Of a DNA stretch of 64,000 nt, positions 28,052 to 32,508 are shown one piece after another. This stretch comes from the human T2T-CHM13v2.0 reference genome, Homo sapiens. The notes under the pieces are model-generated. The model was not told where the DNA came from. It saw nothing but the letters and a program-made list of their open reading frames with translations, and searched no databases. The position numbers were made by a program, and so were the translations under genes. Position 1 is the first letter of the stretch, and each line of letters starts with the position of its first letter. The stretch is from NCBI RefSeq assembly GCF_009914755.1, contig NC_060940.1. The stretch is one strand, 5' to 3'.

Positions 28052-29469
28052 CTGATATTGGAGAAAACTGACCAACTATTGAGTCAATTCCATCCCACCT
28101 TTTTTTTTTTTTTTACAAATGGGGAAACTGAGGCCAGAAAGACAAAGTGATTTTTTTCCTACTGGTAAATGACTTGTATACGGCAGATCTAGGCCTAGAA
28201 TCCTTGGCATTGGAAGTCCAGTTCAGACCCTGTTCTTACATTAGGTTTGCCTAAAACTCTGTGCTTAGTAGGTGCAGCAAATGCTGGTTAAATTGAATGA
28301 AATTACTTAAATGTGACTCACCATAAATTGTTACTGACCCTGAACACATGGGCTACTGGCAAAGCTGCTAATTAATCCGACAATAATTCTGAGGCAATCA
28401 GGCTTCATTAATGTGGGTCTGGCCTCATTTTCAGAAGCACTTTTGGATTGATCACTCTGGCCTGGCAGCTGGAGCAGATACTCCTGGCCAATGAATCACA
28501 GGGCCTCACGTACCCTCCACTCCCTGGGAATTTAGAAGGAACAGTTGGTCCTCTTTCCCAACTAGCTTTCTTACTTGCAAAGAAAGAGTCTTTGCCAAAG
28601 TTTCTGGCTCCTGCAGCAGCTTTCTCACCTGGGCTCTCCCGAGCCAGCATCTTCTGCAGTTTCAGGGACAAGGGGAAGCCCCAAGGTTTGTGTATTTCAG
28701 TTCTTCACCACAGCGCCTGGAGGCAAAGAGTTCTGTACAAAAGGACAAACAAATACTTATTTGGACACAAAAATTAATCACTACAGCTCAAAATAAGTGA
28801 TCCTTATTTTCCCAAGACAGACATAAACTTGAAAGCACATGTCTCAAGGCAGAATGACATTGTGTACAACGTGCATGTGGCTTCTGTCTTCCCATTCTGG
28901 CTGGGCATTTAGGAGGAATGTACTCATTCCTCATAGCCATATGGTATTTGTGCACATCAAGCTAAAGAAAAAATTATCCTTTTTCCATTTCTGGTCCTCT
29001 TGCAGTCTGAACCCATTTACTGAGAGCAGCCTTATTATTATTGAGTTCTCTGTTAAATGGGGTTTGTTTTTGGGTAATATTAACCCAATGAGACAGCTTC
29101 TGTGTGGAAGTTACACACAAAAGAAGAAAGAAGGGGCACTTGTGTTATGTCCTTTGTTAACCACTGTGTAAAATCCTTAGTAAAGAAACTCCCCTTTTTT
29201 AGAGTTGATGTTTCTGAAACTCACATCTACTGGGAATGGGGCAGGGATGTTTCCCTAAAAGAGATACTGATTAGCTTAAAATTCTGTGACCATCACAAGA
29301 CATGGTCTTAAGACTTGGAAGATGGAGGAAGATTCCAGATGACAGCACTTTTCAGTGTCCCATCAGGAGCTGCACACAAGTTGGTACCTAGAGACCTCAG
29401 GATTACGCTGATTCTGGGGTGATTATGCCTGTTGGTCTCTAAGTAAGTCTGCCAATTTATCTGTATTTC

Positions 29470-29771
29470 TTTTTTTTTTTTTTTTTTTTGAGATGGAGTC
29501 TCACTCTCTTGCCCAGGCTGGAATGCAGTGGTGCAATCTCGGCTCACTGCAACCTCCACCTCCTTGGTTCAAGCGATTCTCCTGCCTCAGCCTCCCAAGT
29601 AACTGGGACTACAGGCACACATTACCACGCCCAGCTAATTTTTGTATTTTTAGTAGACATGGGGTTTTGCCATGTTGGCCAGGCTGGTCACAAATTCCTG
29701 ACCTCAGGTGATCTGCCTGCCTCGGCCTCCCAAAGTGCTGGGATTATAGGCATGAGCCACCACACCTGGCC
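29470..29771 (-). mobile_element. Full-length Alu (AluSx-like)
   Basis: Antisense dimer; TSD ATTT(A/T)TCTGTATTTCT. Confidence 0.95.
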
Positions 29772-30546
29772 CATTTTTCTGTATTTCTAGAACCAGTCAC
29801 TGAGGCTGGGCTGCATCGCCCTGCCTTGCTGTCCTCAGTCATGTTGGTCTCCAGGCATCTTGATTCCTTTCCTTGGCTGCCTGATATGGCTCAGAGAGGA
29901 CCTATGTGCTCATGTCAGCATTCCACAAAACACCTGTGCACTTATTTTATAAATCATGAGAAACAGTGATCTAGAGTCAGGGGTACAGCCATGGATGGAT
30001 AAACATGTGTTCTACCATATTTGAAGAGTTCCATCTGGATGACATACTGGCTGTTCTGGGCAGGGAGAAGGAAGAGGGTCAAAGATGGTTATAACAAAGG
30101 CTAAGGGAAGTCAGTTTTCACCATGGTTGGCTTAACAATTCCAAGGCAAGCAAAATGAATTTCAGGCCAACACTAGTAAAAATGGATAGCTATGATGTCT
30201 GTGTTAGTCTGGACTCTTTTGGCTCTCATTGACAGAAATCCATCTCTAACTAGATTATATAGCAACAATAAGAACAACAAACAAACAAAAAACAACAAGA
30301 GGAAATTGTATTGGCTTATTTAGCTGTAACATTCAGTGGGTTACTGACATCAGGAATGGTTGGATCCAGGTACTCAAATGATGGCCTTTGGCTTTGCTTT
30401 CTTTTACATATGTTTCATTTTCAGGGATTTTCATCATCTCAGTTTGGGTTCCCTGACCACCACCATCACCACCAAAAGCAGACCCTGTGGTACAGTACTT
30501 TATTTGGGAGATATGGTGGTCGTGAAAATGAACCACTCAGATGTTC

Positions 30547-30942
30547 TGTGGCAGGAGGCATGATTGACTAATAGCCCTGCTCTTACTCTTCTGGGACACC
30601 ACATTTACACCAAAGCCATACTTCCCTCAGGCTGTACCCAGCTAATGACAGCACAGTGAGGCCACTAAGGGAGGCTCATGCCTACAAGATGTGGTTCTCC
30701 TCTGACAGGTGTCTTTGAGAACCCCTCACTGGCCTGGCCAAACTTGTCTTCGAATTAGGCTGCAGTCTATGTCTCTTCCTGCCCAATTATCCCTCCTTCC
30801 CTCTCTCTGCTGCAGTGTGAGTCCCGTATTGGAGTCTGAGCTTCTCCCCGCCTTCTCCAGCTCCCTCTCCTTTTGCCTTCACAGGTATTTCTCCAGTAAA
30901 CTTCCCACATGTCTAATCTCAACAGAAGGACCAAACTAACAC
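30547..30942 (+). mobile_element. Old ERVL-type LTR (LTR16-like)
   Basis: TGTGG start, AGTAAA poly(A)-signal-like motif, GACCAAACTAACACA end. Confidence 0.45.
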
Positions 30943-31434
30943 AGGAGGTGATCTCAGGAAGCACAAGTGAAGAAATGGAGAGGATAAGACAGATGGGAGA
31001 AAAACCAGTAAAAAGTGTACTGAGGAGCAGGTGGCCCCATGGGCAGGTCACACTGGGATCTTGTTAGAGACTACGTTGAGAATACTCAGGATTGTCTCAG
31101 CCAAGGGCAAGGATGCTAGGGAATTTATTTATGGTTTTCCAATTCCCACTGGCTGAAGATCACCTGAGGGCATCAGCTCTCCCCTACTTGTAGGTGGCAG
31201 AGAAGGGTCCTGGGTACTAGCAAAAGCCTTCAGGCAGAGAGGAAAGATGCAAATGCTTGAGGCTGGAAACTGTCTATCAAAGCTGTAGGTAAGCTCAGGT
31301 GAGCCAAGGGGATATGGCACAGGGCACCAACAGCATATGCTATACCTGTGAAAAAAGAAAGGTAGGGACCACTGGTAGCTTACAATATCCCTAGTGTAGC
31401 AATTCCAAATAATGTATCTTTCCCAGGAATTTTA

Positions 31435-31738
31435 GTCTGGGCATGGTGGCTCATGCCTGTAATCCCAGCACTTTGGGAAGCTAAGGCGGGAGGATTGCTT
31501 GAGGCCAGGAGCTGGAGACAAGCCTGGCCAACATGGCGAAACCCTGTTTCTACTTAAAATACAAAAAATAGCTGGGAATGGTGGTGTGTACCTGTTATCC
31601 CAGCTACTCAGGAGGCTGAGGCATGAGAATTGCTTGAACCCAAAAGGTGGAGGTTGCGGTGAGCCTAAATCATGCCTCTGCACTTCAGCCTGGGCAACAG
31701 AGCAACACTCTGTCGCAAAAAAAAAAAAAAAAAAGAAG
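31435..31738 (+). mobile_element. Alu, apparently chimeric (J-like 5' part, S-like remainder)
   Basis: GGAGGATTGCTTGAGGCCAGGAG then CCTGGCCAACATGGCGAAACC and GAGAATTGCTTGAACC; long poly(A). Confidence 0.9.
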
Positions 31739-31762
31739 AATGCTTCCTTCCCAAGAATTTCA

Positions 31763-32004
31763 GATCGAGCATGGTGGCTCATGCCTGTAATCCCAGAGCT
31801 TTGGGAGGTCAAGGCAGGAGGATCGCTTGAGGCTAGGAGTTCTAGACCAGCCTGGGCAACATAGTGACATCCTGTCTTTACAAAAAAGTAAGAAATTAGC
31901 CAGTGTGGTGGCATGCCTCTGTAGTCCTAGCTGCTTGGATCACTTGAGCCCAGGAGATCTGGGCTGCAATGAGCTATGATGGCGCCATCAGACTCCAGCC
32001 TGGA
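31763..32004 (+). mobile_element. AluJ-type, internally deleted and lacking a tail
   Basis: Ends at ACTCCAGCCTGGA; AAGAATTT on both sides. Confidence 0.85.
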
Positions 32005-32137
32005 AAGAATTTTAACTTGTCTTGGGAGTGCCTCAGATTGGCCAAATTAGTGTCACCTGACCTTCCCTAAACCAATTACTGTGGCCATGGGAATGGAATA
32101 TTCTGTTACATTGCAGTATATGATCGGGCCATCTCTC

Positions 32138-32508
32138 TGATTATGCCTGTTGGTATCTGCTTTTTTTTTGAGACGGAGTCTCACTCTCTTGCCCAGGCTG
32201 GAATGCAGTGGTGTGATCTTGGCTCACTGCAACCTCCACCTCCTGGGCTCAAGCAATTCTCCTGCCTCAGGATCCCGAGTAGCTGGGACTACAGGCACAT
32301 ACTACCACAGTCAACTCACATCTACTGGGAATGGGGTAGGGATATTTTCCTAAAAGAGATGCTGATTAGCTTAAAATCCTGTGACCATCACAAGACATGA
32401 TCTTAAGGCTTGGAAGATGGAGGAAGATTCCACATTATAGTGCTTTTCAGTGTCCAGTCAGGAGCTGCATAGAAGCCTAGAGATCTCAGGATCACGTGGG
32501 TTCTGGGG
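32138..32508 (+). repeat. Circularly permuted dispersed duplicate of 29218-~29630
   Basis: 32138-32308 matches 29420-29628 and 32313-32508 matches 29218-29419. Confidence 0.92.

What the first reader, a model, noticed from the sequence alone, without database searches (positions are those of the whole stretch)
29218..32508. Circularly permuted local duplication: candidate fossil of a re-integrated ~410-bp extrachromosomal DNA circle
Seen: the source reads A (29218-29419, unique DNA ending TTCTGGGG) then B (29420-~29630, TGATTATGCCTGTTGGT + T-tail + half of the Alu). 2.9 kb downstream the same blocks occur on the same strand as B' (32138-32308) then A' (32313-32508). The copy's outer ends (TGATTATG... 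and ...TTCTGGGG) are adjacent bases in the source, and the source's outer ends are joined in the copy (ACCACAGTC-AACTCAC, with possible AGCT/AACT microhomology). A and A' are ~89% identical by hand count (about 21 substitutions and one 6-bp indel). Both Alu pieces share private variants (CTCACTCTCTTGCCC, GGAATGCAG). The source keeps the whole Alu with TSDs, so direction is known and the event postdates that AluS insertion. The copy has no poly(A), TSD or splice signals. Established: small eccDNA/microDNA circles are a few hundred bp and often close at microhomologies. Inference: a circle was formed from the source, opened at a new point and integrated nearby in the germline, then fixed.
Basis: partly seen in the sequence, partly recalled or inferred. 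Interest (0 to 1): 0.82.

Follow-up and report, generated by a model that had tools for sequence, protein, structure and literature searches.

The report
Swapped-order 0.4-kb duplicate, circle-type footprint
A 411-base stretch of human chromosome 16, half unique DNA and half an Alu, was copied 2.5 kb downstream with its two halves in swapped order, as expected if a small DNA circle was cut open and pasted back; it is a clean, old, small example of a process already described in humans.

Summary
Source 29218-29628 reads A (29218-29419) then B (29420-29628: unique flank, T run, right half of a minus-strand Alu). The copy at 32138-32508 reads B' (32138-32308), 4 extra bases AGTC, then A' (32313-32508), on the same strand. 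The copy's outer ends correspond to source bases 29420 and 29419, with no gap and no overlap. A occurs only twice in the whole T2T genome. The source Alu is full length with a 14/15 target-site duplication, so the source is ancestral and the event came after that Alu. The copies differ by K2P 0.10, which puts the event roughly 23-51 Myr ago.

A circular intermediate of about 415 bp, closed by end joining, opened at 29419/29420 and joined bluntly into 32137/32509, is the most economical explanation. I could not prove it because no primate outgroup was reachable. Rivals that remain are two adjacent linear fragments ligated in swapped order, and three template switches. Back-splice signals, poly(A), target-site duplication and a third copy were all absent.

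The footprint is already in print: large human segmental duplications (two 2020 papers) and 82 polymorphic human insertions (2026 preprint). This is a new member of a known kind, below the size floor and beyond the age range of those scans. Interest is moderate.

The parts
29218..29419 (+). Block A of the source: low-copy DNA ending TTCTGGGG
   Evidence: Only two places in the whole genome, itself and A'. Aligns to 32313-32508 with 175 matches, 21 mismatches and one 6-nt indel. No Rfam match lies inside it.
29420..29469 (+). Start of block B: unique flank. It begins with the 17-mer that starts the copy and includes the left target-site duplication of the Alu (29455-29469).
   Evidence: 17 of 17 identical to 32138-32154. 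The 17-mer has 3 exact places genome-wide. The TSD matches 29773-29787 at 14 of 15.
29470..29772 (-). Full-length source Alu on the minus strand: T run 29470-29489 and two monomers. Only 29470-29628 (tail plus right monomer) was copied.
   Evidence: Listed as a masked repeat 29455-29792. SRP-like half-matches at 29488-29635 and 29654-29770 on the minus strand. T run of 20. Flanked by the 14/15 TSD.
29628..29629 (.). Right end of the copied unit in the source. This breakpoint lies inside the Alu, just 3' of its A-rich linker as read on the minus strand.
   Evidence: Homology to the copy stops at 29628/32308. The 30 nt beyond match 9/30.
29629..32137 (.). 2509 nt between source unit and copy: rest of the Alu, unique DNA and two plus-strand Alus. 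It was not duplicated.
32137..32138 (.). Left integration junction: target ...CATCTCTC joined to source base 29420. Blunt, with 0 nt microhomology.
   Evidence: Junction print-out. The 30 nt left of B versus left of B' match 7/30.
32138..32308 (+). Block B' of the copy: the 17-nt flank, remnant TATCTG-C, a T run of 9, and the right Alu monomer
   Evidence: Aligns to 29420-29628 with 160 matches and 14 mismatches. The copy lacks 22 nt and 5 nt of flank and 11 T. Masked repeat 32152-32308. One SRP-like half-match at 32168-32306 on the minus strand. Shares rare variants with the source Alu.
32309..32312 (+). Closing junction of the inferred circle: 4 bases AGTC that match neither source end
   Evidence: AGTC against source GCCC (29629-29632) gives 1 of 4. 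Against CTGA (29214-29217) it gives 0 of 4.
32313..32508 (+). Block A' of the copy
   Evidence: blastn E 1e-56 to 29218-29419. It is the second of only two genomic places for A.
32508..32509 (.). Right integration junction: source base 29419 joined to target AACTAAGT.... Blunt, with 0 nt microhomology. It lies 51 nt from the donor site of the LINC02191 exon 32560-32825.
   Evidence: Junction print-out. No TSD: the longest word shared by the 25-nt flanks is 3 nt. Distance to the exon.

Best explanation
The copy is the footprint of a small circular DNA intermediate.

Proposed sequence of events, in an early anthropoid germline and after an Alu had landed at 29470-29772:
1. The 411-nt stretch 29218-29628 was released or copied from one chromatid.
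2. Its two ends were joined, with 4 filler bases AGTC, into a circle of about 415 bp. That is microDNA size.
3. The circle was broken once, between 29419 and 29420.
4. The linear product was ligated bluntly into a double-strand break 2.5 kb downstream, between 32137 and 32509, in the same orientation. The source stayed intact.
5. The insertion then drifted to high frequency or fixation inside an intron of LINC02191.
6. Since then the copy has lost 22 + 5 nt of flank, 11 T and 6 nt of A', and the two copies have diverged by about 10%.

It has no evident function and is a neutral fossil.

Shown: the block order, the exact abutment, the junction sequences, the uniqueness of A, the direction of copying, and the order relative to the Alu.

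Inferred: the circle itself, end joining as the ligation route, the germline timing, and fixation.
For: 1. The permutation is exact and unit-length. B' starts at source base 29420 and A' ends at 29419, with zero gap or overlap, and flank identity outside the blocks is at chance. A single cut in a circle predicts this. Independent switches or insertions would have to hit it by chance, at roughly 1 in several hundred to thousands of positions (inference).
2. The source's outer ends (29628 and 29218) are joined inside the copy with only 4 extra bases.
3. A is not a repeat family. It has 2 places in 3.1 Gb, and there is no third copy in B-A order.
4. The direction is known. The source Alu is whole with a 14/15 TSD, whereas the copy holds one monomer cut at an internal point.
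5. B' descends from B. The evidence is the 17/17 unique flank, 2 firm shared rare variants (0/15 and 2/15 in other Alus), and the highest pairwise identity in the window (91.2% against at most 88.8%).
6. The junctions carry 0, 0 and 4-filler bases and no long homology. Published circle-type duplications show the same kind of scars: 1-27 bp indels and 1-2 bp microhomology (PMC7450558, Results read).
7. The size fits microDNA, given as 100-400 bp in the review PMC9527254 (passages).
8. Same chromosome, nearby and same orientation match the published polymorphic set: 80/82 intrachromosomal and 79/80 same orientation (preprint section read).
9. The false-positive scheme of PMC7188851 leaves one block flanked twice after tandem duplication, duplication and partial deletion. 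That is not seen here.
Against: - No outgroup or pangenome sequence could be examined. The empty site, the date and fixation are therefore untested.
- A free circle re-joined by end joining should land in either orientation and anywhere. The same-strand, 2.5-kb-away outcome here, and the 79/80 same-orientation bias in the preprint, fit a process acting in cis at least as well.
- The circle closed with filler rather than the microhomology typical of microDNA.
- The first 4 bases of A' and of the right target flank are both AACT (32313-32316 and 32509-32512). The circle model does not predict this; chance is about 1/256 per comparison.
- The right target flank shows a weak, roughly collinear similarity to the Alu-free source flank. 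It is reached by 9 of 500 shuffles and 11 of 400 natural windows. If real, it would hint at older paralogy.
- The source region is not GC-rich or exonic, as microDNA sources are said to be. GC is 0.455 and the region is intronic.
Confidence: 0.6

Rival explanations
1. Two adjacent linear fragments, with no circle. Three breaks in a sister chromatid (at 29217/8, 29419/20 and 29628/9) released fragments A and B. Both were captured in one double-strand break at 32137/32509 and ligated in the order B-A, as a local micro-shattering or fragment-capture event.
For: It needs the same number of breaks (4) and joins (3) as the circle model. The abutment is automatic because A and B share a breakpoint. 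Blunt and filler junctions fit end joining. It acts in cis and nearby. The Holt et al. preprint names insertion of two flanking linear fragments as an alternative (section read).
Against: Two fragments can be captured in 8 order/orientation combinations. Only one gives B(+)A(+), while the circle model gives this order every time (inference). It also requires three breaks within 411 nt. The published sets show a strong excess of the swapped same-orientation form (79/80), which random fragment capture does not predict.
Confidence: 0.15
2. Replicative template switching (MMBIR/FoSTeS). A nascent strand copying up to 32137 jumped back to 29420 and copied to 29628. It then jumped back to 29218, copied to 29419, and returned to 32509.
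For: It explains retention of the source, the same strand, the short distance and the single-event origin. PMC7450558 (Discussion read) and the Holt preprint discuss it for the same footprint. The AACT shared by the start of A' and the start of the right flank could be a switch microhomology.
Against: Landing at 29420 and leaving at 29419 would be a coincidence of about 1 in hundreds or more (inference; the same argument is made). There is no microhomology at the two outer junctions, and 4 unmatched bases sit at the inner one, whereas MMBIR switches normally use microhomology. A variant in which a fork copies once round a circle is again a circle model.
Confidence: 0.12
3. Several ordinary events. 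One version is a tandem duplication of A-B, a dispersed copy, then deletions. The other is two separate dispersed duplications, B first and then A inserted exactly at its right edge.
For: Each step is a common mutation type. PMC7188851 shows that such chains can mimic the footprint and excluded most raw candidates for that reason (52 regions reduced to 3). The AACT repeat flanking A' would fit a separate microhomology-guided insertion of A.
Against: No leftover second block flanks either copy: 6/30, 7/30, 3/30 and 9/30 identity outside the blocks. A/A' and B/B' divergences are alike (10.7% and 8.0% mismatches), as expected for one event. It needs at least 2-3 events with end points that coincide to the base.
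Confidence: 0.07
4. RNA route. A circular RNA (back-spliced or lariat-derived) from this intron was reverse transcribed and inserted, giving a circRNA-derived pseudogene.
For: Such copies show non-colinear order and lack poly(A) (PMC4897178, passages). The region is transcribed as an intron of LINC02191 on the minus strand.
Against: At the firm boundaries there is no AG/GT pair on either strand. The only AG (minus strand, B end at 29634) and GT (A start at 29221) options contradict the bases actually present in the copy. The source unit is intronic, is not an annotated exon, and spans half an Alu. There is no TSD and no terminal A run.
Confidence: 0.03

Closest known systems
Circular-DNA-mediated segmental duplication pairs in the human genome (Chicote et al. 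2020, BMC Genomics, PMC7450558; abstract, Results and Discussion read)
   Same: The footprint is the same: A-B/C-D becomes B-A/D-C, the donor ends are joined inside the derivative, the derivative ends are adjacent in the donor, the junctions carry only short indels or 1-2 bp microhomology, the breakpoints often lie in interspersed repeats, and the location is non-tandem.
   Different: Those cases are 22 kb to 3.9 Mb, lie 0.09-58 Mb apart or on other chromosomes, and were found among annotated segmental duplications. This one is 0.41 kb, lies 2.5 kb away, is older (about 90.5% identity against 93-99%), and falls below any segmental-duplication threshold.
eccDNA-mediated duplications among human segmental duplications (Takahashi and Innan 2020, Sci Rep, PMC7188851; parts 1-3 of the text read)
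   Same: The same detection logic applies (swapped order, same direction, two parallel lines in a dot plot). The same caution about mimicry by multi-step events also applies.
   Different: Their 3 accepted cases are about 20-130 kb at 95-97% homology, drawn from a >1 kb data set. Donor and recipient could mostly not be told apart. Here the Alu with its TSD gives the direction, and all three junctions are resolved to the base.
AB->BA polymorphic insertions in human long-read call sets (Zhang et al., bioRxiv 10.64898/2026.09.03.749254; abstract, Results section on humans, its Methods section and Discussion read)
   Same: Small insertions (>50 bp, source span <=5 kb) that are a cyclic shift of a unique source. 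Nearly all are on the same chromosome (80/82) and in the same orientation (79/80). This locus has all of these features.
   Different: Those insertions are polymorphic and aligned with exact 50-nt seeds, so they are young. Insertions overlapping transposable elements were removed, which would have excluded this Alu-containing case. This one is about 10% diverged and sits in the reference. Terminal microhomology of >=5 bp was enriched in their set (23/82), whereas here it is 0. Their Table S2 (sizes and places) is a supplement I could not see.
Serial translocation by circular intermediates at the cattle KIT locus (Durkin et al. 2012; not read here, known from its description and from recall)
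   Same: Germline circle excision or copying and re-insertion, recognised by circular permutation.
   Different: That case involves fragments of hundreds of kb, moves between chromosomes, has a phenotype, and is recent.
microDNA (100-400 bp eccDNA; review PMC9527254, passages read)
   Same: The size of the inferred circle (411 + 4 nt), and origin from non-tandem genomic DNA.
   Different: microDNA is a physical species detected in cells, reported to be enriched at GC-rich, genic 5' regions and dependent on microhomology-mediated joining. Here the source is intronic with GC 0.455, and the closing junction has filler rather than microhomology.
circRNA-derived pseudogenes (Dong et al. 2016, PMC4897178; passages read)
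   Same: Non-colinear order and no poly(A) tail.
   Different: Those are defined by a back-splice exon-exon junction. None is present here.

Membership tests
Circle-type (AB->BA) duplication | Two blocks adjacent in the donor appear in swapped order and the same relative orientation in the derivative | tested here: met
   A 29218-29419 then B 29420-29628 in the source. B' 32138-32308 then A' 32313-32508 in the copy, all on the plus strand.
Circle-type (AB->BA) duplication | The derivative's outer ends are adjacent bases in the donor (single opening point) | tested here: met
   The left end corresponds to 29420 and the right end to 29419, with zero gap or overlap. Flanks beyond match 7/30 and 6/30.
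Circle-type (AB->BA) duplication | The donor's outer ends are joined inside the derivative (closing junction) | tested here: met
   29628 is joined to 29218 through 4 filler bases at 32309-32312.
Circle-type (AB->BA) duplication | A unique donor, no other copy that could be the real source, and no tandem array | tested here: met
   Whole-genome searches find 2 places for A. The third 17-mer site is unrelated. The copies lie 2509 nt apart.
Circle-type (AB->BA) duplication | No block flanked twice, which excludes the tandem-duplication-plus-deletion mimic of PMC7188851 | tested here: met
   Flank identities are 6/30, 7/30, 3/30 and 9/30. Local alignment of the right flank against the Alu-free source flank is weak: 9/500 shuffles and 11/400 natural windows reach it.
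Circle-type (AB->BA) duplication | An empty acceptor site in an outgroup, with the donor present | not testable with these tools
microDNA / eccDNA as a physical molecule | A covalently closed extrachromosomal circle of 100-400 bp, observed directly | not testable with these tools
   Only the inferred length (411 + 4 nt) can be compared with the 100-400 bp given in PMC9527254. It sits at the upper edge.
microDNA / eccDNA as a physical molecule | Closure at short direct repeats or microhomology | tested here: not met
   There are 4 unmatched bases at the junction. The AGCT/AACT reading needs 3 mismatches in the preceding 4 nt.
circRNA-derived pseudogene | The junction equals a back-splice of annotated exons, with AG before the first base and GT after the last in the source | tested here: not met
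   The dinucleotides at the firm boundaries are GA/GC on the plus strand and GC/TC on the minus strand. The source is intronic.
L1-mediated retrocopy (target-primed reverse transcription) | A terminal poly(A) and a target-site duplication | tested here: not met
   No A or T run sits at either end. The only run is the Alu's own T9, 23 nt inside. The longest word shared by the flanks is 3 nt.
Tandem duplication | Copies head to tail with one novel junction | tested here: not met
   2509 nt of unduplicated DNA lie between the copies. The A-A' spacing is 3095 and the B-B' spacing 2718, so they are not one unit.
MMBIR/FoSTeS templated insertion | Microhomology at each template switch | tested here: not met
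   0 nt at both outer junctions and filler at the inner one. A replicative route cannot be excluded on junctions alone, as PMC7450558 itself states.

The most novel reading that the evidence does not exclude
This locus may be a dated fossil of a cis-acting germline process, not of a freely diffusing circle. In this reading a nucleosome-to-dinucleosome-sized stretch is copied through a closed loop or circle that stays tethered to its chromatid. It is then pasted a few kb away with its orientation preserved. That would make sub-kb AB->BA insertions a distinct mutational class with 'orientation memory', operating in primates for tens of millions of years. Segmental-duplication scans (>1 kb) and polymorphism scans (young, repeat-free) would both miss it. 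The evidence does not exclude this. The locus is same-strand and 2.5 kb away, and the only population-scale data set shows 79/80 same orientation, which a free circle joined by end joining does not predict.
Probability: 0.2. Interest if true: 0.65.

Novelty: new member of a known kind. Interest (0 to 1): 0.45.

Why it matters
It is a small (0.4 kb), old (about 10% diverged) circle-type duplication in the human reference. All three junctions are resolved to the base, and an Alu fixes both the direction of copying and a lower bound on the order of events.

Published human scans would not have found it:
- The segmental-duplication studies start at 1 kb or more and report cases of 20 kb to 3.9 Mb.
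- The polymorphism study uses exact 50-nt seeds and discards insertions that overlap transposable elements.

The locus therefore suggests that the reference holds an unsurveyed layer of sub-kb, fixed AB->BA fossils.

A census of them could settle whether such insertions come from free circles or from a process acting in cis. The useful measures would be orientation ratio, distance distribution, junction types and ages from paired divergence. The locus itself has no visible functional consequence. It lies in an intron of a long non-coding RNA, 51 nt from an exon.

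Tried and rejected
1. A as a member of a repeat family (LTR ends, tandem elements) whose natural order would explain the permutation. 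Rejected: only 2 genomic places.

2. A third copy as the true source. Rejected: the chr9 17-mer site has no flank similarity.

3. Independent Alu insertions at the two sites. Rejected on the 17/17 unique flank and the shared rare variants. The bare 91% Alu identity is not decisive, though, since unrelated Alus reach 92%.

4. Older paralogy continuing from A' into the right flank. Only a weak local alignment was found: score 14-15, reached by 8/300 and 9/500 shuffles and by 11/400 natural windows. The left flanks show nothing (227/500 shuffles reach the score). I treat this as unproven.

5. Tandem-duplication chains. No combination of simple tandem duplications and deletions gives P-A-B-C-B'-A'-Q without end points coinciding to the base (reasoning).

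6. Back-splice or lariat RNA origin. No signals found.

7. L1-type retrocopy. No tail and no TSD.

8. An RNA gene inside A. No Rfam match. The only hits in 29000-32700 were Alu-derived ones below the gathering score, plus two that are clearly spurious.

9. A partial census for more cases.
- In the 64-kb window the only other 'permuted pair' was a microsatellite artefact.
- In 264 kb (window plus 200 kb upstream) there were 14 plus-strand and 8 minus-strand low-copy HSPs within 50 kb. Of these, 4 plus and 1 minus had a boundary word in a permuted place.
- One of those is this locus, two belong to one tandem array, and two were bare 11-mers with no extension.
- The scan is too small to estimate a rate.
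- Its 'unmasked' filter is loose, because the masked-repeat list misses at least one interspersed family.

10. Literature on this locus. A full-text search for LINC02191 gave 5 papers, none about its structure judging by title and abstract start. I found no paper describing this duplication.

Supplementary tables that could bear on size ranges and on whether this site is listed were not opened, because supplements are closed. They are Table S2 of the 2026 preprint, Table S1 of PMC7450558 and Table S2 of PMC7188851.

Full report
**What is in the sequence**

Reading 28900-32900 and searching it for repeats shows two same-strand repeats with different spacings. A at 29218 recurs at 32313, a spacing of 3095. 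An Alu stretch at 29477 recurs at 32157, a spacing of 2680.

A sensitive blastn of 26000-32137 against 32138-38000 gives:
- A 29218-29419 against 32313-32508: 86.6% over 202 columns, E 1e-56.
- Alu piece 29481-29628 against 32161-32308: 91.2% over 148.
- The 17-mer 29420-29436 against 32138-32154: 17 of 17.

Gapped alignments give A/A' 175 matches, 21 mismatches (16 transitions) and one 6-nt indel. B/B' has 160 matches and 14 mismatches, and the copy lacks 22 nt and 5 nt of unique flank and 11 T of the tail. The T run is 20 in the source and 9 in the copy.

So the source reads A then B, and the copy reads B' then A'. The left end of the copy corresponds to source base 29420 and its right end to 29419. 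Just outside each of the four block edges, identity over 30 nt is 6/30, 7/30, 3/30 and 9/30, which is chance. Between B' (firm end 32308) and A' (firm start 32313) lie four bases, AGTC, that match neither source flank.

**Is it more than chance, and is it a repeat family?**

A with its flanks (window 29150-29470) finds only itself and A' in the whole 3.1-Gb assembly at E<=10. The reciprocal search with the copy finds A plus many Alus.

The 17-mer has three exact places genome-wide against an expectation well below one. The chr9 place shares nothing beyond the 17 bases.

The Alu identity needs care. Unrelated Alus elsewhere are up to 92% identical to the copy's Alu piece, so 91% by itself proves little. 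Three further facts support common descent of B and B':
- Among 17 Alu pieces in the window covering at least 125 of the 148 nt, the source/copy pair is the closest (91.2% against at most 88.8%).
- The pair shares two firm rare variants. 29508 C is seen in 0 of 15 others and 29523 A in 2 of 15. A third, 29623 T, has only 3 comparators.
- The unique 17-nt flank sits directly upstream of the T tail in both copies.

**Direction and order of events**

The source Alu is complete. It appears as masked repeat 29455-29792 and gives two SRP-like half-matches on the minus strand. It is flanked by a 14/15 target-site duplication, 29455-29469 and 29773-29787.

The copy carries only the tail and right monomer, with one SRP-like half-match at 32168-32306. 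It is cut at an internal point and fused through AGTC to A'. A half Alu cannot regrow, so the source is ancestral and the event followed the Alu insertion.

Over 361 aligned sites the copies differ by 26 transitions and 8 transversions, K2P 0.102, or 0.092 without CpG sites. At 1.0-2.2e-9 substitutions per site per year per lineage, that is about 23-51 Myr. The rates are recalled, not computed here.

For comparison, circle-type segmental duplications that first appear in gibbons or green monkeys are 93.3-93.5% identical (PMC7450558). At 90.5% identity, this event should be older than the catarrhine ancestor, near the anthropoid stem.

**Surroundings**

Source and copy lie in the same intron of LINC02191 on the minus strand. 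The copy ends 51 nt from the donor site of exon 32560-32825. Rfam finds nothing in A; all matches in 29000-32700 are Alu-derived and below the gathering score, or spurious. No function is apparent.

**Mechanism**

The derived chromosome has three novel junctions: 32137|29420, 29628|AGTC|29218 and 29419|32509. These use four positions of the ancestral sequence.

A circle explains this with four breaks and three joins and no coincidence:
1. The unit 29218-29628 is released or copied.
2. Its ends are joined with 4 filler bases.
3. The circle is cut once, at 29419/29420.
4. The linear product is joined into a break at 32137/32509.

Both integration junctions have 0 nt of microhomology and there is no target-site duplication; the longest shared flank word is 3 nt. 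That pattern looks like classical end joining.

I tried to derive the structure from tandem duplications and deletions and could not do so without end points that coincide to the base. The mimic described by Takahashi and Innan is tandem duplication, dispersed copy and partial deletion, which leaves one block flanked twice (PMC7188851). It is not seen here.

Three template switches would need to land at 29420 and leave at 29419 by chance, and they lack microhomology.

The one rival that explains the abutment equally well is capture of two adjacent linear fragments in swapped order. It needs three breaks within 411 nt, and the observed arrangement is only one of eight it can produce.

An RNA circle is disfavoured. 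No AG/GT pair is compatible with the bases present in the copy on either strand, and the unit is intronic with half an Alu. The lack of poly(A) would not by itself exclude that route (PMC4897178).

**Points against a free circle**

- The copy is on the same strand and only 2.5 kb away.
- In the one population-scale data set, 79 of 80 intrachromosomal AB->BA insertions keep the source orientation. End joining of a free circle should give about half.
- The junction has filler, not the microhomology linked with microDNA.
- A' and the right flank both start with AACT.
- The right flank has a weak similarity to the Alu-free source flank, reached by 9/500 shuffles and 11/400 natural windows.

I therefore put 0.6 on a circular intermediate in the broad sense, free or tethered. 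The rest is split among the rivals.

**Comparison with what is known**

The footprint is established in four bodies of work:
- Chicote et al. 2020 describe 24 human segmental-duplication cluster pairs with A-B/C-D turned into B-A/D-C. Sixteen were characterised, at 22 kb to 3.9 Mb, with junction scars of 1-27 bp and 1-2 bp microhomologies.
- Takahashi and Innan 2020 accept 3 eccDNA-type cases of about 20-130 kb from a >1 kb data set.
- Holt et al. 2022 argue the same from synteny maps and list the same two rivals.
- Zhang et al. 2026 (preprint) classify 82 of 327 source-resolved polymorphic human insertions as AB->BA. Of these, 80/82 are on the same chromosome and 79/80 in the same orientation.

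This locus meets every sequence-level criterion of that kind (see the membership table). It differs in being sub-kb, about 10% diverged, present in the reference, and half Alu. Each of those features would have kept it out of the published scans. It is a new member of a known kind, not a new kind.

**Partial census**

A window-wide search for permuted pairs found only this case and a microsatellite artefact.

I then rebuilt 264 kb from the window plus 200 kb upstream. It held 14 plus-strand and 8 minus-strand low-copy HSPs within 50 kb. Five had a boundary word in a permuted place: this locus, two HSPs of one tandem array, and two bare 11-mers with no extension.

The scan stopped there. It is too small to give a rate.

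**Verdict**

Interest is 0.45.

Noticed in passing
window 27598-27963 (+) and 34340-34695 (-): These are a 366-nt inverted pair, 70.8% alike, bracketing the whole source-copy region. The left copy belongs to an interspersed repeat family with many genomic copies at 81-88% (39 scored of 1245 candidates). Neither copy is in the supplied masked-repeat list, so that list is incomplete and 'unmasked' does not mean unique.
   Followed up: partly
window 32313-32316 and 32509-32512: The first four bases of A' and the first four bases of the right target flank are both AACT, so A' is bracketed by a 4-nt direct repeat. The circle model does not predict this. It could be chance (about 1/256 per comparison) or a trace of a microhomology-guided step.
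   Followed up: partly
window 32509-32660 versus 29464-29469 + 29788-29910: There is a weak, roughly collinear local similarity between the right flank of the copy and the Alu-free flank of the source. The score of 15 is reached by 9 of 500 shuffles and 11 of 400 natural windows. That is too weak to call homology.
   Followed up: yes
window 24775-24967 and 26127-26328: Microsatellite-rich blocks of TATC and CCAT units produce a false 'permuted pair' in self-alignment.
   Followed up: yes
window 31431-31745 and 31764-31989: Two plus-strand Alus lie head to tail, 18 nt apart. The second ends without an A tail about 150 nt upstream of the insertion site. The insertion site itself (32137/32509) lies in non-Alu DNA.
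   Followed up: no
L010 3755-4046 (chr16:25531755-25532046): A short AT-rich tandem array gives cyclic self-matches and hence trivial 'permuted' signals in the 264-kb scan.
   Followed up: partly
window 29510-29569, 32190-32249 (+) and 29586-29637 (-): Rfam mir-3135 and mir-1268 matches below the gathering score fall inside the Alu pieces. They reflect Alu-derived microRNA families, not genes here.
   Followed up: no
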